From: Nanobdellota archaeon
GTDB taxonomy: Archaea > Nanobdellota > Nanobdellia > Pacearchaeales > GW2011-AR1
Direction: 5' to 3'
DNA: 64,000 nt
Assembly (NCBI GenBank): GCA_013329055.1
Contig: DUKY01000013.1
Location: forward strand, 1,587-65,586
Below are positions 6,984 to 47,173 of this stretch, piece after piece; within the stretch, counting starts at the first letter, position 1, and the number at the start of each line of letters is the position of its first letter. Both the position numbers and the translations under genes were made by a program. The notes under the pieces are model-generated. The model had not been told where the DNA came from. It did no database searches and saw only the letters and a list, made by a program, of their open reading frames with translations.

Positions 6984-7017
6984 AATCCTCTAAAGTTTAC
7001 CTCCCTTATAATTTTAT

Positions 7018-7367
7018 GTGATATCCAAGAAGGCTCAAAAAGATATCACCCTTCCATGTTTCGAAGAGATTCAAAAAGAACCAAGGGGTTCACATTCTAT
7101 GTGGCATCCACAGAGGCTCCGAAAGTTTACACTTGCATAATATTCTGAAAGCAAATTTTAAAAGTCGCAAGTGTGGGCTTGAGTTTAAAGATACCACCGA
7201 ACCGCAATTTAAGGAGATTCAAAAGAAACCAGCAGGTGTCTTTTACGCACGACAACATCAATTTCAAAAAACATAATTGTCGTGCTTGTGGCATTTACGA
7301 AGGCTCAACAAAATGCCACCGCTCCACAATTCGAGGAGATTCAAAAAGAACCAACGGGTTCTTTTTA
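7018..7367 (+). repeat. mosaic structured repeat block: A, an A interrupted by module C, B, A
   Basis: Hairpins gtgatatc/gatatcac (7019-7026/7042-7049) and gtggcattt/aaatgccac (7289-7297/7312-7320). Module C (7121-7185) sits between the halves gtggcatc (7102-7109) and gataccac (7191-7198). Module B is the gcacgacaa..ttgtcgtgc hairpin at 7246-7286. The block is near-identical to parts of 15124-15670 and 44326-44827. Confidence 0.9.
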
Positions 7368-8213
7368 TCCGAATATCAACCCAGCAATTGCCGAAATAAA
7401 GAAAGACATAAACATCAACCAGAAAGAATGTTTAACACCAGACTTAACTCCACCACCGGAAAGTTTACCTATCGCAAGACCACTAAAAAAACCTTGCACT
7501 AATAACAGATATAAAAATGAACCAGTAAAAGATTCACCTTGTGAACCATTACCACCAGCAACATTCGGGCTACTCAAACCTTGATTAGTAATATCACCGG
7601 TAAATGCAATACCTTCAACCAAAGGTAAAATTTTAAATTGCATAACCAAAATAATAATTGTAAAAACAAAAAAGATAATATAACCTTGAACAACTAATGC
7701 AGAAATATTTGCTTCTCTTTCTTTTCTCAACTTATCTGAAGTATTAACAGCACCAGCAACAGCCTCTAAAATTTCGCCAATATCTCCCCCAGCCCTTTCA
7801 GCCTGACCAATTAAAGTTATTGAACGAGAAATTGATTTATTCCCAATATCATCTGCAAAAGTCTTAAACGCAGTATTTAATGCAATACCCAAAAGGATTT
7901 GATTAGCTAATTTTTTAACATGTGGACTCAAAACACCATAAGACTTATCTTTAACATTAGTAATACTTTTACTAATAGGATTTCCAGCCTTAACACTTTC
8001 AACTAAATTCCTCGCGAATTCTAAAAACATTTGTTCTTTTTCCCGCTCAACACGAGTTTCATACATAATTCCCAATACAAAAGGCAAAACACCAACTAAA
8101 ACCGCAACACCCATCAAAACAAAAAAAGCTTTAGTCTCCATAAGATAAACAGCTAAAGCTAAGATTAAAATTGAACTTCCTATAGCGACCCAATGTATTG
8201 CGGTTGTTTTCAT
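7365..8213 (-). CDS. type IV pilus/archaellum platform protein, FlaJ/PilC-like T2SS-F domain (second half)
   Basis: 282 aa, polytopic, with one T2SF-like domain (..SISRSITLIGQAERAGGDIGEIL..). The last codons, FG-stop, lie inside the repeat block. Confidence 0.65.
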   Translation of the reverse strand: MKTTAIHWVAIGSSILILALAVYLMETKAFFVLMGVAVLVGVLPFVLGIMYETRVEREKEQMFLEFARNLVESVKAGNPISKSITNVKDKSYGVLSPHVKKLANQILLGIALNTAFKTFADDIGNKSISRSITLIGQAERAGGDIGEILEAVAGAVNTSDKLRKEREANISALVVQGYIIFFVFTIIILVMQFKILPLVEGIAFTGDITNQGLSSPNVAGGNGSQGESFTGSFLYLLLVQGFFSGLAIGKLSGGGVKSGVKHSFWLMFMSFFISAIAGLIFG

Positions 8214-15123: not shown

Positions 15124-15670
15124 CAAAAAATGCCACCCTTCAAGTATTCGAGGAGGTTCAAAAAAAAACAAGGGGTGTCTTTTACGCACGACAACATCAA
15201 TTTCAAAAAACATAATTGTCGTGCTTGTGATATCCAAGAAGGCTCAAAGAGATGCCACCCTTCAAGTATTCGAGGAGGTTCAAAAGAAACCAAGGGGTGT
15301 CTTTTACGCACGACAACATCAATTTCAAAAAACATAATTGTCGTGCTTGTGATATCCAAGAAGGCTCAAAGAGATGCCACCCTTCAAGTATTCGAGGAGG
15401 TTCAAAAGGAACCAAGGGGTGTCTTTTACGCACGACAACATCAATTTCAAAAAACATAATTGTCGTGCTTGTGGTATCCACGAAGGCTCAAAAAGATATC
15501 ACCCTTCCATGTTTCGAGGAGGTTCAAAAGGAACCAACGGGTGTCTTTCATGCACGACGGAATTAATCCTAAAATATAATCGTCGTGCTTGTGGTATCCA
15601 CGAAGGCTCAAAGAGATGCCACCCTTCAAGTATTCGAGGAGGTTCAAAAGGAACCAAGGGGTTCCTTTTA
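15124..15670 (+). repeat. tandem array (about 4.5 units, 122-nt period) of structured modules A+B
   Basis: The landmark tgccaccc/tatcaccc recurs at 15131, 15253, 15375, 15497 and 15617, giving periods of 122, 122, 122 and 120. Each unit has hairpin 1 (GUGRYAUY/RAURYCAC, 16-nt loop), a second helix (ACCCUU..AAGGGGU) and the hairpin B gcacgaca/tgtcgtgc. The fourth B copy has the compensated stem cacgacg/cgtcgtg. Confidence 0.95.
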
Positions 15671-15705
15671 GTAGACTCTGAGGTTTGCTCATAATTAATA
15701 AAAAA

Positions 15706-15928
15706 GCTACCTTCACCCATTCTCAGCTCTGCTACCTGCTAAGCACCTTATCAAATGTTTAGGGCTGCTTGGTTCCCCACCTGACCCAGTTCGCATCTGC
15801 AAGATCAAAGCAGACAAAGCGTCAACGTCTGGAATAAAGACTTTTTTACGCATTAATCACGCCCCTCATTGCAGCTTGCCATAAAGCCCGTTTGCAATAA
15901 AGCGGAGGGCTAATCCGCTACCTAGTCT
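15706..15928 (-). ncRNA. signal recognition particle RNA (7S/SRP RNA), short form; ends approximate
   Basis: The minus strand reads ..CUGGGUCAGGUGG-GGAA-CCAAGCAGCCC.., matching the universal helix-8 motif (compare E. coli 4.5S GGUCAGGUCC-GGAA-GGAAGCAGCC). The segment is much more GC-rich than its surroundings. A TATA-like cttaaatagtataatt lies upstream and a T-run at 15700-15705 lies downstream. Confidence 0.75.
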
Positions 15929-15983
15929 ACAAAAATATAGAATAATTATACTATTTAAGATTAACTAAACCAGAAAACTCTTC

Positions 15984-18900
15984 TTATTTATTAGCTTCTT
16001 CAACAATCTTTGACTTAGCCAATTTTTTATCTTTTTCTTCCTTAACTAAAGGACCAACCACCTTAACAAATAATCCAGGTAACCCTGCACCAATTGGAAC
16101 AGGCTGGTTCAAAATAATATTTTCAATAACACTAGTCAATTTATCTTGAGTACCCTTAATTGAAGCATTAACAAATTGTTTATCCGGAGTTTCAAAAGTT
16201 GCCCTCGCTAAAATTGAAGATTTCTGAGTAATAATACCCATACGAGTTACACCCTTAACAATACCATTATCAGTCATAGCATCAGCAATTAACTTTGAAT
16301 GCCTGTAATCAATATCTAAACCTTGAGAATTTAATACCTCAACAACTTCATTAATAATTAATTGTCTGGCAGCCTCAATACCGAAAACTTTTGCAACTTC
16401 ATAAAAATCATTAGAGATTAATCTATATTTGTCAACTTCCTTTAACTTTAACATCTCCTTTAAATTTGTACCAAGAGTAATAATAACAAAATCCTTGTTT
16501 CGTTTAACAATTAAAATTTGTTTAACACCCTTAACACCAGAAATAATAGTTGCTTTAAGCTTCTCTTTTAATTTATAAATTTCCCTAAAACTATATTCAG
16601 AAGCATTCAAAGTAATTGAATCAGCTTGTTCATTAACATTAAATCCAAGATCATTTAATCTTTCAACAACTTTCTTAATAGTAGTATGAGTTTGTTTCAA
16701 TCCTTTTTTATCAATAACAATTTCAATTTTCTTGTTGCTAAAATCTAATTTAACTTCAGAAGAAATTTCTTTTAATGTAACTTCCTTGATTTTCTCAGCA
16801 AATACCCTTGCATTTCCTTCATTATTAAACTCTTTATCTAAATAAATTTCCATCTTCGGAGAAGAAGGAGTTTTTCTGGCATCAAAAATTTCAATAATTC
16901 TAGGTAAACCACTTGTAACCTGCATTTCAGCTACACCAGCCATATGGAAAGTGTTCAAAACCATCTGAGTTGAAGATTCACCAAATGACTGAGCAGTAAT
17001 AATACCAATAGCTTCACCCGGAGCAATTTGTCCGTCTTTATGAATTTGTGAAACATCTATACCATCATCGCCAAATTGGAATTGAATAATTCGATTATTA
17101 CTATCTCTTACAGTACCATCATATTCAACCCTTAAATCTTGTAAAGCATTAGCAAGTCTACGGTATAAATAACCAGACTTTGGAGTACGTAAAGCAGTAT
17201 CCATAAGTGAATCTCTACCAGTAATCGCACCAAAGAAAAATTCATCAGGTCTTAAACCTTTAATGAATGGACTATTAATAAATCCTCTAGCCTTTGGAGA
17301 TAAATCTCCTTTCTCGAAAAATGATAATGTTCTTTCATTATAACCTAAATCAATTCTTCCGCCACGTAATACCTGCTGACCAACACAACTAGCCATCTGA
17401 GTAATATTCAAAATATTACCACCACCACCAGACTTAATCATATGATTAACAGCGTTAGTTTCAAGGAATTCTTTTTTAACTAATGAACCAACCTTTGTTC
17501 TTACTTCATTTAATATCTTCAAAATTTGAATCTCTCTTGATTCTTCCGCAGTTTTACCAGGAATAATTTCTAATTTACCAGCGTTATATAAATCTAAAGT
17601 TTCCTGAGTTTTTTCTTCAGCATCCTGAATAATTTTTTTACCGGCATCAACAACTCTCTTATCCAAATTTAAATCCTCAACAGAAAGTGTAATACCCCTA
17701 TTTGATAAATAATTTTTACCTAAATTGAAAGCTTTCTTAATAGTTTCAAAAGTCTCCATTCTTCCAACAGTTTTATCTAACTCTTTGATAAGTTCCCCGC
17801 TTCCACCGCCAAATGCAGTTTTATCAATAATACCGCCGGTAATTTCACCTTTCTTAATAGTAATAGAATCATTTACAAAATCAATTTTTGGTAAAATTTT
17901 CGAAAATAATTCTAAACCAGAGATAGATTTTTTAGTGCATTCAAAATCAACACCAGATTGGAATAAAAGTTGATTTGCATCTTCTTTTGAAAATTCATGT
18001 CTACCCAATAAATATCCACCGGTAATAGCATCAACTTCACAACCCATAAAATTAGTATTGTTCTTCGGAGAAATTAAATTTTGTTTAACATCCAATAACA
18101 CTTTTGCTTCAGCTCTCGCTTCTTCAGTTTGAGGAGAATGAATATTCATTTCATCACCATCATAATCCGCATTATAAGGAGAAGCAACAGCAGGATGCAT
18201 TCTGAATGTTTTGCCTGGAAGAATCTTAGCATAGTGTGCCATTAAACTTCCTTTATGCAAACTTGGATGTCGGTTAAATAATACAATATCACCGTCCTGT
18301 AAATGTCTTTCAACTTTATATCCGACACTAAGCTCATTCATAATTTCTTCTTTCAATTCTTCAGTAATTTTCTTTCTTTTTCCATCAGTTCTAATAATAT
18401 AATTTGCTCCCGGATATTTATCTGCAGTTTCAATTAATTTTTTTAATTTTTCTAAATTTAACTCAGTAACAGTCTCGGCAACAGTAACAATTTTAGCAAT
18501 TTGGAAAGGAATACCAACTTCATTAATTTCAATTGATGGATCAGGAGAAATAACTGTTCTTGCTGAATAATTTACCCTTTTACCAGCTAAGTTCTTTCTT
18601 AATCTTCCCTCTTTACCCTTAATTCTCTCAGTAATAGTTTTTAATGGTTGACCGCTTCTATGTCTTGCAGGAGGAATTCTTGCAACACTATTATCAAAGA
18701 AAGTAGTAATATGGAATTGCAATAAATCCCATAAATCTTCAATAATAACTTCAGGTGCACCAGCATTCAAATTCTCCCATAATCTTTGATTTGCACGAAT
18801 AATATCAGAAAGTTTATGAGTTAAATCATCCTCACTTCTTTCCCCCGATTCTAAAATAATACTCGGTCTAACAGTTACAGGCGGAACAAGCAACATAGTT

Positions 18901-23427: not shown

Positions 23428-23553
23428 GAACCTATAGCTCAGTCTGGTTAGAGCGCCGGTCTTATATGAACTTAATCCATTTAGGATTATTTTATCTCAA
23501 TAGATACAGTCTAAGAGAGCCGGAGGCCCTGAGTCCAAATCTCAGTAGGTTCA
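23428..23553 (+). tRNA. tRNA-Ile (anticodon UAU) with a 51-nt intron at the canonical 37/38 position (23467-23517)
   Basis: Manual fold. Acceptor gaaccta/taggttc; D arm gctc-agtctggtta-gagc; anticodon stem ccggt/gccgg; loop c-t-TAT-a. A central 4-bp helix cuua/uaag flanked by 3-nt bulges (ua|u and ag|a) forms a bulge-helix-bulge. T arm ctgag-tccaaat-ctcag; discriminator a. No CCA is encoded. Confidence 0.8.
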
Positions 23554-26591: not shown

Positions 26592-26635
26592 AAATAATTA
26601 CATGATTTTAGATATAAATAATTAACTATATGTAA

Positions 26636-26793
26636 AATATCACCACAATTGAGGAAGCTCAAAAACTTCAAAAGTATCGTCTTTTGAACGCGTTTAAATT
26701 TCAATGAAATTTAAATGCTAAAAATCTTTGATTTTTATGTCCCAGAAAATTTAATTCTACAAATTTTCTGAGGAAACCAGCGGGTGTCTTTTA
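26636..26793 (+). repeat. mosaic repeat: module A 3' part interrupted by hairpin modules G, H and others
   Basis: atatcaccacaattgaggaagctcaaaa | cttcaaaag-tatcgt-cttttgaa | tttaaatttca-atg-aaatttaaa | taaaaatc-tttg-attttta | cccagaaaattt..aaattttctgagg | gaaaccagcgggtgtctttta. The outer parts join up as in the PolB copy of module A. Confidence 0.8.
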
Positions 26794-27028: not shown

Positions 27029-27116
27029 AATAATAGATAAGATTCACTAATATTTAAATTTTATTCCTGTCTTCCGAATTTGTAAAAAGTAAAAATAAAT
27101 TTTTTGACTAATTTCT

Positions 27117-27196
27117 TTGGCAATTCAAGGTTTTTTTAAGGGAGGGGGGGGCTTTAGCCCAAACTTGAAGAGGGAATCCAAAAAAGATTTAAACCT
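27117..27196 (+). repeat. module D copy (variable hairpin between conserved flanks)
   Basis: tttggcaattcaagg..ttaaggga-ggggggg-gggct-tt-agccc-aaacttgaagagggaatcc. The same flanks occur at 33681-33747 and 39970-40095. Confidence 0.7.
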
Positions 27197-27225
27197 TAAT
27201 CTAAAAATTTTTACAAAGCCCACAT

Positions 27226-27423: not shown

Positions 27424-27463
27424 AATCTTTTATTCTATAATGATTATATAAAACTTTCAATTT

Positions 27464-27650
27464 AAAAGTGTGTTAATAATTAAGATTTAACGGCTAAAAG
27501 GCAAATCATTAATAATGATTTTGGGGCGAGTAACTTCGTGGTAGAAACGATAATCCACAAAGTTTCGTGCGAGGTTACGAGAATGTGGGAAAAATTCAAT
27601 ATTAAAATGGGGATTTGTTAAAATCTTAAAAACAATTTTTCAAAAGAAAC
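27464..27650 (+). repeat. composite repeat J-E-F-I
   Basis: J is aaaagtgtgttaataattaagatttaa. E is ggctaaaaggc-[aaatcatt..aatgattt]-tgggg. F is gtaacttcg-tggtagaaacgataatccacaaagtttcgtg-cgaggttac. I is gggatttgttaaaatcttaaaaacaatttttcaaaagaaac. All have counterparts in 47610-48215. Confidence 0.8.
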
Positions 27651-27708
27651 AAGAAGATTACTTTCAATTCTAATACATATTTAAATATTCCAAATCATTT
27701 TTAAAATA

Positions 27709-30270
27709 ATGAAAACAAAATTCATTCCAATTGACTACGATTACTTTGATTTTAAAGGAAGAAATTACATTAAAATAATTGGCAGAGACGACAATCAAAA
27801 AAGAATTTGCATTATTGACACCTGCAAAGTTTACCTCTGGGCAATACTTGAAGAAAATTTAAAAAAAGATCAAATTGAAAAAATAATCGATAAAATAAAA
27901 AAAATAAAAATTGAATTAAAGGGAAGAACAACAAAAATTGATTCAGTTGAACTCCATGAAAAAAATTTCATGGGAAGAAAAGTTAAAGCACTCAAAATTT
28001 TTGCAACAAACTATAAAGATCTTCACGATGTCGCAGATAAATTAGACATTAAAGAAATAACAAATAGAAGGGGATATGATTTAGGATATATTACACATTA
28101 CATAATTGAAAAACAAATTAAACCTCTTAATTGGTATGAAATTTCAGGAGAAGTTTTAAACAATTCATTAGAATTTGGAGGAATTGATATGGGACTTGAC
28201 GTTGACATTTGTATAAAACTTGAAACTTCAAAAGAAATAAAAGACCAGCAATTTAATCCAAAAATTTTAGCTTATGACATTGAAACAGATGAATTACAGA
28301 TAGGCAAAGGAGAAATTTTAATGATCTCATTAGTCAGCGAAAATTTCAAAAAAGTAATTACATGGAAAAAACCTCAAAATTTACAAAAACATCGTGACAT
28401 TACAGGAGGCTCAGAAAAATGTCACCGTTCAGAACTTCGAGGAAGCTCAAAAGAAACCAGCGGGTGTCTTTTAGAATCTATAGAATTTGTAAAAGACGAA
28501 GCAGAACTAATAGAAAAATTTATAGAACATGTAAGAAAAATTTCTCCGGATTTTTTAGTAGGTTATTATTCAGACGGATTTGATTTACCATATATTCAGG
28601 CACGGGCAGAAAAGCATAAAGTAAAACTAGCACTGGGGTTAGATGATTCACAACCCAGATTTTCAAGAGGGATAGAACTCACAGGAAAAATAAAAGGAAT
28701 CACACATATTGACATATTAAAATTCATCAGAACAGCATATGCCCAATATATGAAATCCGAAACACTTTCATTAAACGAAGTTGCAAAAGAATTTTTACAG
28801 GACACGAAAATTGATTTTGAATTAAAACACTCTTCAAAAATAGAAGACCATAATTGGGAGAAGTATTATGAATATAACTTACAGGATTCAATTTTAACAT
28901 TAAAACTTTTCGAAAAGTTTTGGCCGGATTTATTAGAATTTACAAAGATAACAAATGAACCAATCTTCGATTTATCACGTGCAGGATTATCAAAATATAT
29001 GGAATCTTATATCTTGCAAAACTTAAATAAATTTAATGAAATCCCACAAAAAAGACCTGGATACAATGAAATAAAAGAAAGGCAATCAAGTGGTGGAGTA
29101 GAAGGAGCATTTGTCTTAGAACCCAAACCAGGACTTTATGAAAATATCGCAATGTTTGATTTTACATCTATGCATACAAGTATAATCATAACACACAATA
29201 TTTCAGGTTCAACTTTATTAGAAAAAAAAGAAAAAAATTGTTTTGAATCCCCTGAACTGGAATTGCAGGGAAAAAAAACAAAATTTTATTTTTCAAAAGA
29301 AAAAGGATTTTTCCCGTCATTATTAGAAGAATTATTTAACAAAAGAAAACAATATAAAGCAGAATATAAAAAAAATAAAAATTCAATTACACTTGCAAGA
29401 AGTAATGCATTTAAAGTTCTTTCAGCTTCAGCACACGGCTATTTAGGATTTTTTGGAGCACGATATTATTCTATTGAATCTTCAGCATCAGTCTTAGCAT
29501 ATGTAAGAAAATTTAATATAGAGACAATAGAAAAAACAGAAAAAAAAGGATATCAGGTGATTTATGGCGATACAGATTCAATAGCATTTTTAATGAATGG
29601 AAAAACAAAAGAAGAAATAAAAGAATTATTGCAATACTTAAATGACGAACTTCCGGGAGTAATGCATTTAGAACTTGAAGGATTTTTTAAAAGAGGTTTG
29701 TGGGTAACTACACGAGGAGGAACAACAGGAGCAAAGAAAAAATATGCCTTGCTTGATGAAGAAAATAATTTGAAAATAAGAGGATTTGAAACAGTAAGGC
29801 GTGATTGGTGCAGATTATCCCGGGACATACAAAATAAAATTATAAGACAGATATTAAAAGACGGGAATGAAATCAAAGCTCTTGAATCTGTCAAAGAGCT
29901 AATTAAAAAAATTAAAGAACGAAAAATTGACAAAAAAGATTTAATGATTAGAACACAACTAAAAAAACCAATTTCAGAATATAAAGCTATTTCACCGCAT
30001 GTTATCGCCGCGAAAAAAATGAAAGAACAGGAAATCCCGGTTACACAGGGAGATTTAATAGAATATTATATAGCTGAAACAGAAAACAAAAAAGCAAAAC
30101 TTGTTAGAGAAAAAGTAAAACTTCCAAATGAAAAAGGAGAATACAACATTGAATATTATCTTGAAAAACAAATTTTACCGGCAGTAGAAAATATTTTTCA
30201 TGTATTTAAAATAAATATAAAAGAAATAATTGACGGAAAAAAGCAGGATAATTTAAATAAATGGTTTTAA
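27709..30270 (+). CDS. polB: family B DNA polymerase
   Basis: 853 aa with Exo I LAYDIETDE, Pol A DFTSMHTSIIITHN, Pol C VIYGDTDSIAF and a C-terminal PIP box QDNLNKWF. Confidence 0.95.
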   Translation: MKTKFIPIDYDYFDFKGRNYIKIIGRDDNQKRICIIDTCKVYLWAILEENLKKDQIEKIIDKIKKIKIELKGRTTKIDSVELHEKNFMGRKVKALKIFATNYKDLHDVADKLDIKEITNRRGYDLGYITHYIIEKQIKPLNWYEISGEVLNNSLEFGGIDMGLDVDICIKLETSKEIKDQQFNPKILAYDIETDELQIGKGEILMISLVSENFKKVITWKKPQNLQKHRDITGGSEKCHRSELRGSSKETSGCLLESIEFVKDEAELIEKFIEHVRKISPDFLVGYYSDGFDLPYIQARAEKHKVKLALGLDDSQPRFSRGIELTGKIKGITHIDILKFIRTAYAQYMKSETLSLNEVAKEFLQDTKIDFELKHSSKIEDHNWEKYYEYNLQDSILTLKLFEKFWPDLLEFTKITNEPIFDLSRAGLSKYMESYILQNLNKFNEIPQKRPGYNEIKERQSSGGVEGAFVLEPKPGLYENIAMFDFTSMHTSIIITHNISGSTLLEKKEKNCFESPELELQGKKTKFYFSKEKGFFPSLLEELFNKRKQYKAEYKKNKNSITLARSNAFKVLSASAHGYLGFFGARYYSIESSASVLAYVRKFNIETIEKTEKKGYQVIYGDTDSIAFLMNGKTKEEIKELLQYLNDELPGVMHLELEGFFKRGLWVTTRGGTTGAKKKYALLDEENNLKIRGFETVRRDWCRLSRDIQNKIIRQILKDGNEIKALESVKELIKKIKERKIDKKDLMIRTQLKKPISEYKAISPHVIAAKKMKEQEIPVTQGDLIEYYIAETENKKAKLVREKVKLPNEKGEYNIEYYLEKQILPAVENIFHVFKINIKEIIDGKKQDNLNKWF
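28375..28473 (+). repeat. module A copy inserted in frame in polB
   Basis: Hairpin gtgacatt/aatgtcac (28394-28401/28418-28425, 16-nt loop acaggaggctcagaaa) followed by ccgttcagaacttcgaggaagctcaaaagaaaccagcgggtgtctttta. It is translated as ..GGSEKCHRSELRGSSKETSGCLL... Confidence 0.85.
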
Positions 30271-33603: not shown

Positions 33604-33648
33604 ATTAAAAATTATGGAAAGGCGTTTAAATATCTTATGACCAAATAT

Positions 33649-33779
33649 GCTCTGCCCAGAGTTTTTGATTTTAGCTAACTTTTGGCAATTCAAATATTTA
33701 TTAAGGGCGGGCCTTTCGACAAATGTCGAAACTTGAAGTGGGAATCCTAAAATCAAAAAAACCTAATTCTGGACAGAGC
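33649..33779 (+). repeat. module D copy bounded by imperfect inverted repeats (MITE-like)
   Basis: The left arm gctctgcccagagtttttgattttag (33649-33674) is the imperfect reverse complement of the right arm ctaaaatcaaaaaaacctaattctggacagagc (33747-33779). The core is ttggcaattcaaatatttattaagggcggg-[tttcgaca-aa-tgtcgaaa]-cttgaagtgggaatc. Confidence 0.8.
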
Positions 33780-33824
33780 CGACCAAACAGATTCTTTAAA
33801 AAAGGGATTATTCTTAATAATTTT

Positions 33825-34913
33825 ATGAGTTTTCAAAAAATACCGGAATTAAAACCATTATATTTGGAAAGAATAACGTCAATATTAAACAACAAAGAAG
33901 ATTTAAAGAAATATTTAGAAATCTTAAAAATTCAACCTGTTAAATCAATTAGATGTAATACATTAAAAATTTCAGTTGAAAAATTAAAAGAAGTTCTTGA
34001 AAAAAAAGGATGGGTTATATCTCAACCATGGAAAGACTTTCCTGAAGTAATGATTGTTGAAGGTAAACTTCAGGATTGTGGCATTACAGGAGGCTCAACA
34101 AAATGCCACCGTTCAGACCTTAGAGGAAGTTTGAAAGAAACCAGCGGGTGTCTTTCACCTGAAGTAATGATTGTTGAAAATCAATTAGAACCTGGAGAAT
34201 TAGGTCGGTCACTAGAACATTTATTAGGTTATTATTACATTCAGGAACTTTCAAGTATGTTGCCAGTAATTGCACTTCAACCAAAAGAAGGAGATATCAT
34301 TTTAGATTTATGTGCCGCACCGGGAAGTAAAACAACACAAAGTGCATCTTTAATGCAAAATAAAGGAACAATAATTGCAAATGAAGTAAATATGGGAAGA
34401 TTAATGGTTTTAGCATCAAATCTTGAAAGATGCGGAGTAACAAATACAATAATCTCAAGAAAAGATGGATCAGCATTATGCAAAAAATTCGCAAATGGAG
34501 AAATCAAATTTGACAAAATTTTAGTTGATGCACCATGTTCAGGAGAAGGAACATTAAGAAGTTCAAGACAAACTTATCTTATGTGGAATATAAAAACAAT
34601 CCAGCAATTATCAAAATTACAAAAACAATTATTCAAATCAGCATTCGAGATATTAAAAATAAATGGAGAAATGATTTATTCAACCTGCACTCATGCACCG
34701 GAAGAAAATGAAGAAATTGTTAGTTGGGCATTAGAGGAATTTAAAGACCAAATAAAAATTGAAAAAATTAATTTGCCAATAAAACCCAGACAAGGATTAA
34801 CAAAATGGGAAGATAAAGAATATTTCGAAGAAGTAAAATATAGTTGCAGAATTTATCCGCAGGATAACAATACAGAAGGATTTTTTCTTGCAAAATTCAA
34901 AAAAATAAAATGA
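33825..34913 (+). CDS. NOL1/NOP2/Sun-family RNA cytosine-C5 methyltransferase
   Basis: DLCAAPGSKT, ILVDAPCSGEGTLR and IYSTCT motifs. The start is trimmed to MSFQKIPEL (ATG 33825) because the upstream extension lies in repeat D. Confidence 0.85.
   Translation: MSFQKIPELKPLYLERITSILNNKEDLKKYLEILKIQPVKSIRCNTLKISVEKLKEVLEKKGWVISQPWKDFPEVMIVEGKLQDCGITGGSTKCHRSDLRGSLKETSGCLSPEVMIVENQLEPGELGRSLEHLLGYYYIQELSSMLPVIALQPKEGDIILDLCAAPGSKTTQSASLMQNKGTIIANEVNMGRLMVLASNLERCGVTNTIISRKDGSALCKKFANGEIKFDKILVDAPCSGEGTLRSSRQTYLMWNIKTIQQLSKLQKQLFKSAFEILKINGEMIYSTCTHAPEENEEIVSWALEEFKDQIKIEKINLPIKPRQGLTKWEDKEYFEEVKYSCRIYPQDNNTEGFFLAKFKKIK
34041..34178 (+). repeat. module A copy inserted in frame in the methyltransferase gene, flanked by a 21-bp direct duplication
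   Basis: cctgaagtaatgattgttgaa occurs at 34041-34061 and again at 34158-34178 (offset 117 nt, 39 codons; the protein shows PEVMIVE twice). Between them lie the hairpin gtggcatt/aatgccac (34078-34085/34102-34109) and ..aaagaaaccagcgggtgtctttca. Confidence 0.9.
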
Positions 34914-35509
34914 AAAAACAAATCATATACGGAATAGGACTTTTATTTTTAGCACTCGGAATATACTTTTCAATTTTCCAAAAACTGCCACACTTCTTTT
35001 CATTCTTTTCAATAGGACTATTTCTTATTACATATCAAATATATAACTCAATTGCAAAAGAAAAGTTATTTCACAAATGGAAAACAAAACAATATGCAAT
35101 ATTCTTTATAACATTATTAATTTCATGCGTAATCATTGACCATCTTGGTTTAGTTCTTAACTACTGGAATTATCAGTACTCAACACTATTTGATGAAATA
35201 ATAAAATATATCCTTGAATGGGAAATTCCATTAATTAGCACAATGATTCTCTTTATGATTGGAGAAGAGATATTTAAGAAAAAATTTTCAATCCTAACTT
35301 CCCAAACACTATCATTATTAACATTCATAATCATCCTAGGGATAATAATAGAATATCTAAATCACTTTGCAGATTCATGGATAATAACAAACATGCCATT
35401 TACAAATATTAAAATAGGAAATTACTTTTTAATATTTCAAACAATAGGATATTGGCTTATGGCAATTATTCCTTATACGATATATAAATTTACAGATAAA
35501 ATAAAATGA
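34910..35509 (+). CDS. membrane protein
   Basis: 199 aa, multi-TM, with an ATGA overlap with the upstream gene. Confidence 0.5.
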   Translation: MKKQIIYGIGLLFLALGIYFSIFQKLPHFFSFFSIGLFLITYQIYNSIAKEKLFHKWKTKQYAIFFITLLISCVIIDHLGLVLNYWNYQYSTLFDEIIKYILEWEIPLISTMILFMIGEEIFKKKFSILTSQTLSLLTFIIILGIIIEYLNHFADSWIITNMPFTNIKIGNYFLIFQTIGYWLMAIIPYTIYKFTDKIK

Positions 35510-35787
35510 AAAAACAAATAAAAAAAAATTCTTCAAAACCACTATCTAAAAAAAGTAAAACCCAAAAGATAATTTATAGAACACTAAAAATAATGTGGGG
35601 GATAATAGGAATATTAATCTTGTTCTGGACATCTTTTTGGTATATAAAAGTTCTAACAATCGGAGAATTAGGAGGAGTTATTGCAGGAACAATACTTTTT
35701 GCTTTAGGATTTTATTTATTAGGAATTTATATTGGAATAACATTATTATTTTTATTAATTAAATGGATTATCAAAAAATTAAAATGA
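35506..35787 (+). CDS. small membrane protein
   Basis: 93 aa with two TM helices and a 4-nt overlap with the upstream gene. Confidence 0.45.
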   Translation: MKKQIKKNSSKPLSKKSKTQKIIYRTLKIMWGIIGILILFWTSFWYIKVLTIGELGGVIAGTILFALGFYLLGIYIGITLLFLLIKWIIKKLK

Positions 35788-36266
35788 ATATTCACAAACA
35801 ATTTAAGATATTAAGTTTAAAAGAAAAAAAACAAATTGAAAATAAACTCAAAGAATCATTTGGGATAAAATCAATTTATGGAACACTTTTACAAAAAAGT
35901 GAAGAAAAAATATTTTTATTTCAGGGAAGTTTAACAATACCGGAATTACAAAGATTGGAAAGATTAATTCCAATTGAAAGAGCAGGAGTATATTTTGCTA
36001 AATTGCAAAAAGGAGAAATAAGATTAAGTATTGAAGGAACACAAATCCTCAAAGATCAAATAACAAAAAATATTTTTGAGCTTGATAAAAAACAAACAGA
36101 AATATGGATGATGGGAGAAGAATTAGATATTCAAACAGGAATGAAAGGATTTATCATTATAAAATATAAAGAGCATTTCTTAGGATGCGGTAAAGCATCA
36201 TTTGAAAAGATAAGTAATTTTATTCCAAAAAATAGACGATTGAAAAATAGAAATATTATCAAATGA
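35784..36266 (+). CDS. PUA-like RNA-binding domain protein (RsmF C-terminal/NIP7-like)
   Basis: ..AGVYFAKLQKGEIRLSIEGTQIL.. and ..GFIIIKYKEHFLGCGKASFEKISNFIPKNRRL.. resemble the pre-PUA/PUA module that normally accompanies Nop2/RsmF-type methyltransferases. The start is set at the ATGA overlap (MNIHKQF). Confidence 0.4.
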   Translation: MNIHKQFKILSLKEKKQIENKLKESFGIKSIYGTLLQKSEEKIFLFQGSLTIPELQRLERLIPIERAGVYFAKLQKGEIRLSIEGTQILKDQITKNIFELDKKQTEIWMMGEELDIQTGMKGFIIIKYKEHFLGCGKASFEKISNFIPKNRRLKNRNIIK

Positions 36267-39922: not shown

Positions 39923-40112
39923 AAAAAAAGTGTGCTTAATAATAAAAATTTAATTTTTGATTAACTTATTGGAAATTCAAATATTCTTAAGGGCGGGTCT
40001 TCAAGCTTTAGCTTGAACTTGAAGCGAAAGTCTACATTTGCATTAATTCCAAAGGTAAAATTGAAAAAAGCAAGTGTGGACTTGAGTAGGGAATCTCAAA
40101 AATCTAAATTTT
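39923..40112 (+). repeat. composite repeat: J, then module D carrying a nested module C
   Basis: J is aaaaaaagtgtgcttaataataaaaatttaa. D is ttggaaattcaaatattcttaagggcggg-[ttcaagct-tt-agcttgaa]-cttgaag. C (cgaaagtctacatttgc..gcaagtgtggacttgagta, 40025-40088) is inserted before gggaatc. The flanking inverted repeat is aaaaatttaatttttga / tcaaaaatctaaatttt. Confidence 0.8.
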
Positions 40113-44325: not shown

Positions 44326-44827
44326 AAAAATTTAATTCTACAAATTTTCTGAGAGAACCAACAGATTCACATTCTATGTGGCATCCCAAGAAGGCCGAAA
44401 GTTTACACTTACATTAATCCCAAAGGTAAAGATAAAAGCTGTAAGTGTGGGCTTGAGTAGAAAGTTTACACTTGCATTAAATTCTGAAAGCAAATTTTAA
44501 AAGTTGCAAGTGTGGGCTTGAGTAAAGATATCACCGCTCCGCAATTTGAGGAAGCTCAAAAGACCAAGGGTGTCTTTTACGCACGACGACATGAATTCTA
44601 AAATATAATCGTCGTGCTTGTGGCATCCAAGAAGGCTCATAAAGATGCCACCCTTCAATGTTTCGAGGAGGGTTAAAGGGAACCAAGGGGTGTCTTTTAC
44701 GCACGACAACATCAATTTCAAAAAACATAATTGTCGTGCTTGTGGCATCCACAAAGGCTCATAATGATGCCACCGAACCGCAATTCGAGGAGATTCAAAA
44801 AGAACCAACGGGTTCTTTTTATCCGAA
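44326..44827 (+). repeat. large mosaic repeat block: H fragment, an A interrupted by two tandem C modules, then B, A, B, A
   Basis: The stem halves gtggcatc (44378-44385) and gatatcac (44527-44534) are separated by C copies at 44397-44458 (stem acacttac/gtaagtgt) and 44459-44523 (acacttgc/gcaagtgt). The following B hairpins are cacgacga/tcgtcgtg and cacgacaa/ttgtcgtg. An intact A hairpin is gtggcatc/gatgccac at 44620-44627/44644-44651. Confidence 0.9.
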
Positions 44828-47173
44828 ATAACTATTATCCTGAGGAATCGCAGCCCTTGCTGACTCTAAGAATTTATCCTCAATCTTTTTATAAGTTTCA
44901 ATAGTAGATTTACTCACGCTAGGCTTAACCTTTTTCAAAGCCTCATCAAAATGTTTTTTCCAAACTTCAACAGCATCAACAGATTCTCTTAAAGCAAGCA
45001 TCGCAGCCTCCCTAACTAATGCTTCCAAATCAGCCCCGGTATAACCTTCAGTTTGTTTAGCAAGTTCACTAATAATAACATCTTTTGCTAAAGGAGTTTT
45101 AACAGTATGAATATCCAAAATCATCTTCCTACCTTTTTCAGAAGGAGCATTAATAAGCAAAATTTTATCAAATCTTCCGGGACGTAAAATTGCAGGATCC
45201 AATAAATCAGGACGATTAGTAGTTGCAACAATTAAAATATCCTTTAAATCTTCTAAACCATCCATATCAGATAATAATTGATTCAAAACTTTCACCCCCT
45301 CTTGACCTGACGCATTGTCAACCATACCACGCTTACTAGCGATTGACTCAATCTCATCAATTAAAACGATACATGGTGAAACTTGTCTCGCTTTCTCAAA
45401 AACTTTAGCAACACCCTTATGCGAATCATTAACCCATTTACTCAATAATGAAGGACCCTTAACGGAAATAAAATTAACATCAGATTCTTTTGCAGCCGCC
45501 TTAGCCAAAAGAGTTTTACCTGTACCAGGAGGACCATAAAGTAAAACACCTTTAGGAGGACGAACATTCAATCGCTTAAAACCTTCAGGATGTTTCATAG
45601 GCCATTCAACAGCTTCTTTTAATTCCCTTTTAACATCATCAAGCCCACCGACAGAATTCCAATCAACATTTGGAGTTTCAACTAAAACTTCCCTCATAGC
45701 AGAAGGTCTGACAACTCTTAAAGCATCAGTAAAATCCTGTGCAGTAATAACTAATTTTTCCAAAATTTGCGGGGAAATTTGTTCTTCAGAATCAAGTTTC
45801 ATCTCAGGCAGTAACTTTCTTAAAACATTCATAGCAGCTTCCTTGGTTAATGATTCCAAATCTGCACCAACAAATCCGTGCGTAACTTGAGCAAGTTTAA
45901 CTAAATCAACATCTTTAGTTAAAGGCATGCCACGAGTATGAATTTTTAAAATTGCTAATCTACCTTCTTTATTAGGAACCCCAATTTCAATTTCTCTATC
46001 AAATCTACCAGGACGTCTTAAAGCAGGATCAATAGCATTAACTCTATTCGTCGCACCAACAACAATAACTTTACCCCTGGCCTTTAAACCATCCATCATA
46101 GTTAAAATTTGAGAAACAACTCTTCTTTCAACCTCGCCATGAACCTCTTCACGCTTAGGAGCAATAGCATCAAGTTCATCAATAAAAATAATTGTCGGAG
46201 CAGTTTTTTCAGCTTCATCAAAAATATCCCTAATCTTTTTTTCACTCTCACCATAAAATTTAGACATAATTTCCGGACCATTTAACAAGATAAAATTTGC
46301 TTCAGATTCATTTGCAACAGCTTTAGCTAAAAGAGTTTTACCAGTACCAGGAGGACCATAAAGTAAAACACCTTTTGGAGGCTCAACACCTAACCGTTGA
46401 AAAATTTCAGGATGTTTCATCGGTATCTCAACCATTTCCCTAATTTTTTTAATCTCTTCACTTAAACCACCAATATCTTCATAATTAATTTCAGGGATAT
46501 TATCTGAACTAACATCAACTGCTTTAGAATTTAAAACTACCTCAGTATTCTCGGTAATTATCACAGGCAGACAAGGATTAGTTGAAACAACAATAAATCG
46601 AATTTGAGTAACACCCCCACCTAAATTACCCATGCCCATACCCCCTAAAATATCTCCAAGGTTGCCAAAAATATCATTTAAATCACCCATGCCTTCAGAC
46701 ATTAAATCTTTTCTTCTTTGCACACCCCCTAAAATTACAACATCTCCCTTAACCAAAGTTCTTCCTAAAAGTCCTCTTCGTAAACTATCAGGGTCTCCCT
46801 GAACCATAATTCCTTGCTGAGCAGGAGCAATAATAACTTTTTTTGCTTCATGAACATTCGCTTTAGAAATTTGAACAACATCGCCTAATCCTGCACGAGC
46901 ATTTTTTCTTAAAATACCATCAATCCTTATTCTTCCTTCACCAATATCTGCAGGATAAGACCTATCAGCAATAGCAACAGTTTCACGATTACCCTTAATT
47001 AAAATAACATCACCACGCTTAATGCCTAATTCCCTCATAACTTCAGAATCAATACGGGCAATTCCTTTATACGCATCATCCTGTAAAGCTTCTACAACAA
47101 TCAATTCAAATTTTTGATTTTTACTCTTGCTGTTATCTGCTTTTTTATCTTTATCTTTATTCTTATCTTTCAT
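44819..47173 (-). CDS. cdc48: CDC48/VCP-type AAA+ ATPase (paralog 2)
   Basis: 784 aa with GPPGTGKT twice, an N-domain ([16 protein letters not shown]) and a Gly-rich insert ([11 protein letters not shown]). The last codons, YFG-stop, lie in the repeat. Confidence 0.9.

What the first reader, a model, noticed from the sequence alone, without database searches (positions are those of the whole stretch)
34041..34178. Second in-frame module A insertion, in the Nop2/Sun methyltransferase, bounded by a perfect 21-bp direct duplication
cctgaagtaatgattgttgaa occurs at 34041-34061 and again at 34158-34178, exactly 117 nt (39 codons) apart, so the protein reads PEVMIVE-GKLQDCGITGGSTKCHRSDLRGSLKETSGCLS-PEVMIVE. 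The intervening 96 nt contains a module A copy with the stem gtggcatt/aatgccac. It is translated in the same frame as the PolB copy (GGS.KCHRS.LRGS.KETSGCL). A perfect flanking duplication is the footprint of an insertion event (a target-site duplication) or of a template-switch duplication. It argues that the event is recent and that the element is or was mobile. Deleting one repeat copy plus the insert would restore a contiguous ORF.
Basis: seen in the sequence. Interest (0 to 1): 0.88.

Follow-up and report, generated by a model that had tools for sequence, protein, structure and literature searches.

The report
Mobile hairpin repeat inserted in methyltransferase
A 96-base copy of a small hairpin-forming repeat has inserted, in frame and with a 21-base duplication of its target, into a loop of an RNA methyltransferase gene of a tiny (DPANN) archaeon, and the same unusual insertion footprint recurs in other such archaea, which points to an undescribed way of moving DNA.

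Summary
The 21-mer occurs exactly at 34041-34061 and 34158-34178 and flanks a 96-nt insert. Strains 95-99% identical carry the empty site with a single 21-mer. The filled allele is on 34 public contigs.

The insert is a 15-nt leader plus an 81-nt structured repeat, "module A". It has an 8-bp covarying hairpin and a terminator-like 3' hairpin. The repeat is widespread in DPANN archaea and matches no Rfam family. It sits in a hypervariable surface loop of an RsmB/Nop2-family methyltransferase.

The duplication is a family footprint. Five other independent module A insertions have the same architecture:
- a 32-42-nt direct target duplication;
- the element's 3' end abutting the downstream copy;
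- a leader containing the reverse complement of the first 8-10 nt of the target.

Array spacers ("module B") have the same form. In one array they are visibly copies of a host gene's end.

This does not fit cut-and-paste transposition. I infer a copy-choice mechanism: strand-switch or target-primed synthesis. The enzyme is unknown. No reverse transcriptase or transposase was found in the window.

In function it resembles Rickettsia palindromic elements (in-frame insertions in PolB, Nop2, Kae1 and Dus), but its footprint is new.

The parts
33825..34913 (+). Host gene: RsmB/Nop2/Sun-family RNA cytosine-C5 methyltransferase. It is 362 aa from ATG 33825. The longer ORF call from 33723 arises from an upstream MITE-like insert.
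   Evidence: Pfam PF17125 + PF01189; orthologs start at MSFQK; PDB 3A4T, 1IXK, 2FRX, Nop2.
34041..34061 (+). Upstream copy (T1) of the duplicated target, encoding PEVMIVE.
   Evidence: The empty site in L001-L003 has one copy. The AlphaFold model puts this copy in the disordered excursion.
34062..34076 (+). Leader ggtaaACTTCAGGAt. Bases 34067-34075 are the reverse complement of tCCTGAAGT, that is, the first 8 nt of the target plus 1 nt upstream of it.
   Evidence: 9-nt match. The same feature is seen in five other insertions.
34077..34157 (+). Module A core. P1 hairpin 34078-34085 / 34102-34109 with a GGAGGC loop. 3' hairpin GAAAGAAACC / GGTGTCTTTC at 34133-34156. The element ends ...TCTTTCA.
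   Evidence: nhmmer. Alignment and covariation. Fold.
34158..34178 (+). Downstream copy (T2) of the duplicated target. Orthologs align to this copy, and it occupies the native beta-strand in the model.
28392..28473 (+). Module A copy in frame in the PolB gene (27709..30270). Strain L004 lacks it. It has no flanking duplication and no inverted target copy.
   Evidence: The same PolB site is occupied in L007, L020, L023 and L033.
15126..15670 (+). Tandem array (A-B)n-A with a 122-nt period. It abuts the 3' end of the SRP RNA gene.
   Evidence: Module B is 100% identical in 5 copies.
7017..7370 (+). Composite array of modules A, B and C. Its last 3' hairpin supplies the stop codon and a terminator-like hairpin for gene 7365..8213 (-).
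44340..44830 (+). Composite array of modules C, A and B. It ends at the stop codon of the CDC48 gene 44819..47173 (-).
26620..26793 (+). Degenerate module A with nested module D. It is absent from strain L004.

Best explanation
SHOWN.
- A complete 96-nt unit (15-nt leader plus 81-nt module A) of a structured, multicopy, DPANN-wide repeat family inserted between codons E and N of the loop PEVMIVE|NQLE-PGELG of an RsmB/Nop2-type methyltransferase.
- The insertion duplicated 21 bp of target, and the reading frame stayed open.
- The extra 39 residues are predicted to form a disordered surface excursion at a position where orthologs vary from 4 to 66 residues.
- The footprint is [target T][leader ending in the reverse complement of the first 8-10 nt of T][module A, ending ...GTGTCTTTYA][T]. 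It recurs at five other independent insertions (T = 32, 34/42, 36, 39 and 42 nt) and in the A-spacer arrays.

INFERRED.
- The element is not cut and pasted by a transposase. It is copied in by a polymerase that switches templates.
- Geometrically, the inverted micro-copy and the second target copy meet at one phosphodiester of the target, with the element between them. This is as if synthesis ran down one target strand for about 9 nt, across the element, and back along the other strand (fold-back or strand-switch, or target-primed copy-choice). Re-engagement 21-42 nt upstream then creates the duplication.
- Existing units can serve as donors for sites that share microhomology with their flanks.
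- Selection keeps only events that leave genes intact, either in frame or with the gene's end restored by the duplication.
- The nature of the template (RNA or single-stranded DNA) and the enzyme are unknown.
For: - Empty and filled alleles in strains 95-99% identical.
- Family membership and structure. All window copies are on the + strand. 97.8% of cells are paired and 10 pairs show compensatory changes, against 0 of 500 shuffles.
- Recurrent footprint. Reverse-complement matches are 9 nt (window), 10 (L061), 9 (L065) and 10 (L054/L014 and L015). L052 has 7 of 8, with a leader that is the 3' arm of module B.
- The L046 array has 54-nt spacers that are copies of a host gene's last codons, stop codon and 3' UTR, and they contain the same inverted arms.
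- In 3 of 4 perfect cases the inverted copy extends 1-2 nt beyond the duplicated block, so the block is not a staggered-cut overhang.
- 22 of 28 repeat clusters in the first locus set and 36 of 44 in the metagenome loci have no flanking duplication; this includes the polymorphic PolB copy.
- No reverse transcriptase, transposase or integrase Pfam hit in the 40 window ORFs scanned.
- Strand bias: about 10 loci in the window are all on +, and the flank GC skew on the element's strand is negative in 50 of 57 clusters.
- Permissive loop.
Against: - The mechanism is inferred from footprints only. No enzyme, intermediate or donor for the window's leader was found.
- The six events are few, and all overlap gene ends or a gene interior, so selection shapes what is seen.
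- Two signals conflict. The inverted copy spills past the duplication, which suggests it was templated from the target. But the two SI047_bin24 events share leader and filler, and the L052 leader comes from module B, which suggests it was inherited from the donor.
- Orthologs in other lineages carry homologous inserts at the same loop, with similar leaders (GGNARA...) and no second target copy. The window's insert may therefore derive from another Nop2 allele rather than from a de novo event.
- The strand bias could equally reflect selection for terminator function on the opposite strand.
Confidence: 0.6

Rival explanations
1. Imprecise transfer from an insert-bearing Nop2 allele (homology-facilitated illegitimate recombination, or 'sloppy homing'). 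A donor allele reading ...PEVMIVE-GKL...CLS-PGELG was copied into an insert-free allele. The left junction used homology in ...ATGATTGTTGAA. The right junction mis-registered at CCTGAAG (P-E-V) instead of CCTGGAG (P-G-E). This re-used 21 + 12 nt of recipient sequence and so created the duplication.
For: - Orthologs P0005, P0022, P0029 and P0053 (and P0099) have homologous module A inserts at the same loop. They are in the same frame, start with G-K/R and end ...KETS.CLS directly before PGELG.
- Leaders are similar: window GGTAAACTT, L027 GGCAGAAACTT, L005 GGAAAATTA.
- Seven SNPs lie in the 55 nt right of the insert against 2 in the 281 nt to the left, which suggests an imported patch.
- The population is visibly mosaic.
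Against: - The insert's P1 hairpin is the type resident in this genome and its relatives (L038, L041), not the gcgatttc type of the insert-bearing orthologs.
- No such donor allele is among the 120 best homologs or the cluster members.
- The leader's 9-nt reverse complement of the target start, and the identical architecture at five unrelated genes (SMC, FtsY, CDC48, a pilin-like gene, an unknown gene), are not explained by a Nop2-specific accident.
Confidence: 0.2
2. Classical MITE transposition. A trans-acting transposase or integrase made a 21-bp staggered cut, and gap repair produced a true target-site duplication.
For: - The direct repeat is perfect and immediately flanks the inserted DNA, and the empty site holds one copy.
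- Other insertions are also directly flanked by duplications.
- A different repeat in the same window does look like a classical MITE, with a 7-nt direct repeat and terminal inverted repeats.
Against: - Duplication length varies from 21 to 42 nt.
- The family has no conserved terminal inverted repeats. The flanking inverted arms differ at every site.
- The inverted micro-copy crosses the boundary of the duplicated block.
- Most copies, including the polymorphic PolB copy, have no duplication.
- No transposase or integrase domain was found in the window.
Confidence: 0.08
3. The insert is removed or skipped during expression, by an archaeal bulge-helix-bulge-type intron or by ribosomal bypass between the two identical PEVMIVE-coding repeats. 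The protein made would then be wild type.
For: - Identical 21-nt repeats could act as matched take-off and landing sites.
- In-gene copies keep their hairpins. Their 3' halves are more conserved (83-93% nt) than the flanking PolB coding sequence (66-81%), which suggests a constraint at the nucleic-acid level.
Against: - Every in-gene copy seen is stop-free and in frame (PolB in 5 genomes; Nop2 in the window strain, L004, L005 and L027 plus orthologs P0029 and P0053; Dus; Kae1 in antisense). That would be unnecessary if the insert were removed.
- The fold of the junction region is not unusually stable (z = -1.3) and shows no helix-bulge-helix across the junctions.
- The PolB copy has no repeats.
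- No Rfam match.
Confidence: 0.04
4. An ancient internal duplication of the protein, or an assembly artefact, unrelated to mobile DNA.
For: None beyond the repeat itself.
Against: - Single-copy PEVMIVE in the closest relatives and in 75 of 120 orthologs.
- The insert belongs to a family with many other copies.
- The allele is present on 34 contigs from several sources and in independent assemblies.
Confidence: 0.01

Closest known systems
Rickettsia palindromic elements (RPEs)
   Same: Both are small (about 100-150 bp), hairpin-forming, multicopy repeats. Both insert in frame into unrelated housekeeping genes and add a peptide at a tolerated surface position. Both also occur in intergenic DNA. 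The description of RPEs is taken from the review PMC10969869.
   Different: - Different domain of life, with no sequence relationship tested or apparent.
- Module A also forms tandem arrays with host-derived spacers.
- New insertions carry 21-42-nt target duplications plus an inverted micro-copy of the target. To my knowledge this has not been described for RPEs.
- In-gene sites recur across lineages (PolB, Nop2).
Prokaryotic MITEs and terminator-like repeats (Correia/NEMIS, ERIC, RUP, SPRITE)
   Same: They are non-autonomous, short, structured and multicopy. They are often found at gene ends, can supply terminator-like hairpins, and are sometimes fused in frame to ORFs (PMC10969869).
   Different: MITEs are defined by terminal inverted repeats and a short duplication of fixed length set by the parent transposase. 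Module A has neither. No parent insertion sequence was found.
Non-LTR retroposons / SINEs (target-primed reverse transcription)
   Same: A precise 3' end abuts the duplication. The 5' end is variable and includes read-through into the donor's upstream neighbour (L052). Target duplications are long and of variable length. Extra sequence is present at the 5' junction. The properties of TPRT are stated from general knowledge.
   Different: - These elements are known in eukaryotes.
- Module A has no poly-A or other simple-repeat tail.
- No reverse transcriptase was found in the window.
- An inverted target micro-copy is not a standard TPRT feature.
IS200/IS605-type single-strand elements, their PATE derivatives, and REP/RAYT
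   Same: Subterminal hairpins, a strong strand-orientation bias, and no terminal inverted repeats. The family properties are stated from general knowledge.
   Different: Those elements insert without any target duplication, next to a fixed 4-5-nt target, and need a Y1 HUH transposase. Here the duplications are long, no fixed target motif exists, and there is no Y1_Tnp or TnpB hit.
Replication-based template-switch rearrangements (quasipalindrome template switching, FoSTeS/MMBIR)
   Same: Templated insertions joined at microhomologies, combined direct and inverted copies of nearby sequence, and duplications of variable length. Stated from general knowledge.
   Different: Those are sporadic mutational events with arbitrary templates. 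Here one structured element is inserted again and again, which implies a dedicated or strongly favoured substrate.
CRISPR arrays (resemblance in form only)
   Same: Arrays of a structured repeat alternate with spacers. A new unit is added together with a duplication of about 20-40 nt.
   Different: The 'spacers' are hairpins copied from the insertion target and are identical within an array. The period is 122 nt. No cas genes are present. Single units sit inside genes.

Membership tests
MITE (classical) | Conserved terminal inverted repeats | tested here: not met
   In the alignment of 20 copies the ends (TGTGGCAT... / ...GTGTCTTTTA) are not inverted repeats. The inverted arms flanking copies differ from site to site and match the local target.
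MITE (classical) | Short target-site duplication of fixed length | tested here: not met
   Duplications are 21, 32, 34/42, 36, 39 and 42 nt. 22 of 28 clusters in the first locus set and 36 of 44 in the metagenome loci have none.
MITE (classical) | Small, non-coding, multicopy, polymorphic between strains | tested here: met
Rickettsia palindromic elements | Palindromic repeat inserted in frame in unrelated protein-coding genes at tolerated positions | tested here: met
   In-frame copies in PolB, Nop2, Dus (sense) and Kae1 (antisense). The site is a hypervariable loop and a disordered excursion.
Rickettsia palindromic elements | Sequence homology to RPE families / Rickettsiales host | not tested
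   No RPE sequences were on hand. The host is a DPANN archaeon. Module A is filed as working like an RPE, not as a member.
IS200/IS605-derived (PATE) or REP/RAYT | Insertion without target duplication next to a fixed short target; Y1 HUH transposase in the genome | tested here: not met
   Recent insertions carry long duplications. No shared target motif was found. There is no Y1_Tnp, OrfB or RAYT hit in the 40 window ORFs scanned. The whole genome was not available.
IS200/IS605-derived (PATE) or REP/RAYT | Hairpin ends and strand-specific orientation | tested here: met
   Covarying hairpins. All copies in the window are on +. Flank GC skew is negative in 50 of 57 clusters.
Retroposon inserted by target-primed reverse transcription | Precise 3' end, variable 5' end, variable-length target duplication | tested here: met
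   The 3' end ...GTGTCTTTYA lies 0-2 nt from the downstream copy in all six events. Leaders are 9-23 nt. L052 reads into module B.
Retroposon inserted by target-primed reverse transcription | Reverse transcriptase available; RNA intermediate | not testable with these tools
   No RT domain in the window. The rest of the genome and transcript data were not available.
Archaeal BHB intron / intein | Bulge-helix-bulge at both junctions, or intein splicing motifs | tested here: not met
   The fold of 34030-34190 shows no such motif and z = -1.3. The insert is 32-39 aa with no intein blocks. No Rfam hit.
CRISPR array | Short repeats, unique spacers, cas genes | tested here: not met
   The period is 122 nt and spacers are identical. 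No cas domains were found.
RsmB/Nop2/Sun m5C RNA methyltransferase (host gene) | RsmF_N + RsmB-F methyltransferase domains with the conserved PC and TC cysteine motifs | tested here: met
   Pfam PF17125 + PF01189. DAPCSGEG and STCT are invariant in the alignments. PDB hits 3A4T, 1IXK and 2FRX at E about 1e-52.

The most novel reading that the evidence does not exclude
Module A is the first recognised member of a class of archaeal non-autonomous elements that spread by polymerase copy-choice: strand-switch or target-primed synthesis, possibly at replication forks or through an RNA copy. No transposase would be involved. Each event converts a stretch of target into a hairpin 'spacer', which builds repeat-spacer arrays and inserts peptides into essential enzymes of genome-reduced DPANN archaea. 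The leader's 8-10-nt complement of the target may act as a pairing guide that chooses new sites.
Probability: 0.3. Interest if true: 0.88.

Novelty: new variant of a known kind. Interest (0 to 1): 0.77.

Why it matters
DPANN archaea have very small genomes and few recognised mobile elements. Yet this window carries several polymorphic repeat families. One of them writes extra peptides into PolB, an rRNA/tRNA methyltransferase, Kae1 and Dus.

The recurrent footprint is a concrete and testable signature of an insertion mechanism. To my knowledge, and within the literature searched, that mechanism has not been described for prokaryotic repeats. The footprint has three parts:
- a long target duplication of variable length;
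- a precise 3' junction;
- an inverted micro-copy of the target.

It also explains how the repeat-spacer arrays of these genomes arise.

There are practical consequences too. Gene callers and ortholog alignments of DPANN proteins contain these inserts. The filled and empty alleles are ready-made strain markers in metagenomes.

Tried and rejected
1. Peptide searches for other host proteins failed. The 32-aa query was too short. The 50-aa and 83-aa queries found almost no word candidates. The profile search reverted to the whole Nop2 family because the short rows were down-weighted. Host range therefore rests on DNA loci only.
2. Rfam gave no family for module A, either at gathering threshold or at E <= 10.
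3. IMG/VR viral contigs had no match to the 19-mer. The 18 matches to a degenerate pattern are not module A.
4. I considered the motif (A)TTGTTGAA as a target signal, because three duplications end or start with it. I rejected it as general. The 8-mer is common in these AT-rich genomes (about 60 per 266 kb), and three other events lack it.
5. I considered that 'GK' at the start of all loop inserts proves a donor Nop2 allele. This is unresolved. A similar leader start (GGTAAG/GGTAGT) also precedes intergenic copies in L011 and L024.
6. The first AlphaFold run with 11 sequences was unusable (pLDDT 53). It was repeated with 93 sequences.
7. No donor copy carrying the window's leader was found in any fetched locus.
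8. The 199-aa gene flanked by a 19-nt repeat looked like a second long-duplication insertion. It is better read as a deletion in L001-L003, because distant L027 has a 199-aa ORF at the same place.
9. Reading-frame openness of module A is not general. The used frame is open in only 11 of 20 copies. In-gene copies are a selected subset.
Full report
**1. The observation**

The 21-mer cctgaagtaatgattgttgaa occurs exactly at 34041-34061 and 34158-34178. It never appeared in 100 shuffles. The 96 nt between the copies keep the ORF 33825..34913 open, and it reads PEVMIVE-GKLQDCGITGGSTKCHRSDLRGSLKETSGCLS-PEVMIVE.

The insert is 87% identical to a copy inside the PolB gene (28391-28471). It is 70-76% identical to copies in three intergenic arrays at about 7.0, 15.1 and 44.5 kb. 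All copies are on the + strand. The PolB copy is read in the same frame.

**2. Organism and host gene**

The window is AT-rich (27-35% G+C). It encodes archaeal RNA polymerase subunits, PolB, FEN1, two CDC48 paralogs, a type IV pilus ATPase and membrane proteins, AlaRS, TFE and deoxyhypusine synthase. It also holds an archaeal SRP RNA and an intron-containing tRNA. Homologs are labelled Nanoarchaeota, Pacearchaeota or Woesearchaeota, so this is a DPANN archaeon.

The host gene has the Pfam domains RsmF_N and RsmB-F. It matches M. jannaschii Trm4 (3A4T), PH1374 (1IXK), E. coli RsmF (2FRX) and Nop2 at E about 1e-50.

**3. Empty site and population**

- P0002, P0003, P0137 and P0142 are 97% identical to the window protein. 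They have one PEVMIVE and no insert.
- P0001, P0123, P0126, P0132 and P0136 have the insert with the duplication.
- P0123 equals the window protein and is recorded on 34 contigs from several sources. The insert-free P0137 is on 16 contigs.
- At the DNA level, loci L001-L003 align to window 33781-34061 and to 34158-34923, with one 21-mer shared by both alignments. L004 carries the identical 138 nt.
- The empty alleles differ in the 21-mer by one SNP (ccGgaag) and read ENHLQ where the filled alleles read ENQLE. They are therefore not recent excision products.
- Relative to L001-L003, the filled haplotype has 7 SNPs in the 55 nt right of the insert against 2 in the 281 nt to the left. It may have entered this lineage by recombination.

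**4. Module A**

An alignment of 20 copies from the window and 12 other loci gives three structural features:
- an 8-bp hairpin P1 with a roughly 17-nt loop containing GGAGGC;
- a short helix;
- a 3' hairpin AAAAGAAACC / GGTGTCTTTT followed by TA.

97.8% of cells are paired and 10 pairs show compensatory changes. No shuffle of 500 reached these values, and slid controls pair at 43-57%.

P1 comes in at least two sequence types, gtggcat/atgccac and gcgatttc/gaaatcgc. The 3' half is nearly invariant. The 19-mer GAAACCAGCGGGTGTCTTT occurs in 21 genome loci and 42 metagenome loci, nearly all of them AT-rich DPANN contigs. It was not found in IMG/VR. No Rfam family matches.

Modules can be nested: C sits in the P1 loop and D in the 3' hairpin.

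**5. In-gene copies**

Module A lies in frame at several places:
- at the same PolB site in the window, L007, L020, L023 and L033;
- in the Nop2 loop in the window, L004, L005 and L027 and in proteins P0029 and P0053;
- in a Dus-like protein (L068);
- in antisense, in Kae1 (L019).

In PolB, the element's 3' half is 83-93% identical between genomes whose flanking coding sequence is 66-81% identical. The hairpins are kept. This suggests a constraint on the nucleic acid, or homogenisation between copies.

The Nop2 loop is hypervariable. 75 of 120 orthologs have 4 residues there. About 30 have 9-66 residues, scattered over a neighbour-joining tree.

An AlphaFold model built from 93 sequences (pLDDT 80, pTM 0.81) places residues 72-112 below pLDDT 50. 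These residues are the first PEVMIVE plus the insert. The second PEVMIVE occupies the native strand.

**6. The duplication is a family footprint**

I first found no flanking repeat at other full-length copies within 60 nt. Wider searches then found five more independent events.

| Event | Duplication (T) | Position in the host gene |
|---|---|---|
| L014 = L054 | 39 nt | 5' end of a pilin-like gene |
| L015 = L030 | 36 nt, 3 mismatches | 5' end of CDC48 |
| L052 | 34 nt, or 42 with one mismatch | 3' end of SMC |
| L061 | 42 nt | 3' end of FtsY |
| L065 | 32 nt | 5' end of an unknown gene |

The host genes were identified from sequence motifs.

In all six events, read in the element's sense, the order is: T, then a leader, then module A ending ...GTGTCTTTYA within 0-2 nt of the second T. 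The part of the leader nearest P1 is the reverse complement of the start of T:
- ACTTCAGGA in the window (9 nt);
- TTTATCAAAT in L061 (10 nt);
- CGAAGCTGC in L065 (9 nt);
- TTGTTGAAGC in L014 and L015 (10 nt);
- CGTCGTGC in L052 (7 of 8).

In the window, L061 and L014 the complement runs 1-2 nt beyond T into the upstream flank. For the window alone, a 9-nt match between a 15-nt leader and a 15-nt target start is expected about 2e-4 times by chance (my estimate).

Where the insertion hits a gene's first or last 11-13 codons, the duplication restores an intact gene. In the window it keeps the frame.

**7. Arrays**

Module B (CGCACGACAA-loop-TTGTCGTGC) has the same form as T + filler + inverted arm. 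Each A in an array is flanked by these arms.

In L046 the spacers are 54-nt copies of a methyltransferase gene's last codons, stop codon and 3' UTR. They begin TTTTGAAG and end CTTCAAAA. Spacers therefore originate as target duplications. The window's Nop2 insert is in effect a one-unit array.

B is 100% identical at five places in three arrays of the window. Array copy number differs between the window and a 93-96% identical genome, DATDUI01.

**8. Mechanism (inference)**

Cut-and-paste transposition is disfavoured for these reasons:
- the duplication length is variable and long;
- the family has no conserved terminal inverted repeats;
- the inverted copy crosses the boundary of the duplicated block;
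- most copies have no duplication;
- no transposase, integrase or reverse transcriptase was found among the 40 window ORFs scanned.

The geometry is that of a strand that copies about 9 nt of one target strand, then the element, then the other target strand starting at the adjacent base, after an earlier pass over T. This means fold-back or strand-switch (copy-choice) synthesis, or target-primed copying.

Two lines show that existing units act as donors at sites sharing microhomology:
- L052's leader is the 3' arm of module B, and its target start (TGCATGACGG) is 9/10 identical to B's 5' arm.
- L014 and L015 lie in unrelated genes of one genome. They share the leader ctatcYccTTGTTGAAgcc and both ends of T.

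For the window's event no donor was found.

The strand bias fits a replication-coupled process. About 10 loci in the window are all on the + strand, and the flank GC skew on the element's strand is negative in 50 of 57 clusters, some of them redundant. It equally fits selection for the terminator-like reverse complement at the 3' ends of genes.

**9. Rivals**

- The main rival is imprecise copying from an insert-bearing Nop2 allele, with the right junction at CCTGAAG instead of CCTGGAG. Homologous inserts in orthologs, similar leaders and the linked SNP patch support it. The resident-type hairpin, the lack of such a donor and the general footprint argue against it.
- Conversely, the 'CLS-PGELG' alleles may be old [T..A..T] alleles that lost the second copy by deletion between CCTGAAG and CCTGGAG.
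- The PolB polymorphism has no duplication and 11 SNPs in the 85 nt to its left. It looks like an old allele exchanged by recombination.
- Splicing or ribosomal bypass is unlikely, because all in-gene copies are open and in frame.

**10. Comparison and novelty**

In function the closest analogue is the Rickettsia palindromic element (review PMC10969869). In footprint the closest are SINE-like target-primed insertion and replication template-switch events.

Full-text searches found no DPANN paper that mentions MITEs, repetitive elements or target-site duplications. This shows only that no description exists in that library.

I rate the finding a new variant of a known kind: a small structured repeat that invades genes, with an undescribed insertion footprint.

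Noticed in passing
window 33646-33780 (related: 27102-27202, 39949-40001): A second repeat family that looks like a classical MITE. It is a 135-nt insert, absent from L001-L003, with a 7-nt direct repeat gaccaaa and imperfect terminal inverted repeats (gctctgcccagag / ctggacagagc). It creates the spurious N-terminal extension MSKLEVGIL... of the methyltransferase ORF. Its presence is independent of the module A insert: P0142 has the MITE but not module A.
   Followed up: partly
window 34905-35519: The gene 34910..35509 (199 aa, no Pfam hit) is flanked by a 19-nt direct repeat ataaaatgaaaaaacaaat and is missing from L001-L003. Distant L027 has a 199-aa ORF at the same position, so this is probably a deletion between repeats in L001-L003.
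   Followed up: partly
window 7360-7372 and 44815-44830: Two unrelated minus-strand genes, a T2SS-F-like gene (7365..8213) and CDC48 (44819..47173), both end ...TTCGGATAA. This is followed by AAAAAGAACCCGTTGGTTCTTTTT, the reverse complement of the last module A hairpin. The repeat seems to supply their last two codons, the stop codon and a terminator-like hairpin.
   Followed up: no
window, all repeat loci; 57 clusters in L004-L069: Every copy of modules A, B, C, D and of the MITE-like family in the 64 kb is on the + strand, although most genes are on the - strand. Across all loci the flanking GC skew on the module A sense strand is negative in 50 of 57 clusters.
   Followed up: partly
window 23428-23553 (+): A tRNA gene of 126 nt with a long intron was found by Rfam (55 bits) but missed by ARAGORN.
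   Followed up: no
window 15669-15985 (-): An archaeal SRP RNA, scoring below Rfam's gathering threshold for the archaeal model and partly matched by the bacterial small SRP model. The module A array abuts its 3' end.
   Followed up: no
window 27462-27660: About 200 nt differ completely from strain L004. They include a G+C-rich stretch (ggggcgagtaacttcgtggtagaaacg...gtgcgaggttacgagaatgtggg) that could be a small RNA gene or another module.
   Followed up: no
L046 1020-2130: An array of nine module A hits. Its first four spacers are 54-nt copies of the 3' end of the upstream methyltransferase gene (codons FFEELYVLELTI, stop codon and 3' UTR). The array then switches to canonical module B spacers.
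   Followed up: yes
L014 2110-2310 and L015 5040-5340: Here module A is antisense to the host gene. The upstream duplicate of the start codon opens a short ORF of about 48 codons that runs through the element and stops at a TGA overlapping the real ATG (AAAATGA). The leader supplies a GGGGA/GGAGA Shine-Dalgarno-like motif.
   Followed up: no
window 35763-36266 (+): The PUA domain that is normally fused to RsmF/Nop2-type methyltransferases is encoded here by a separate 167-aa gene, two to three genes downstream. This arrangement is conserved in L001-L005 and L027.
   Followed up: no
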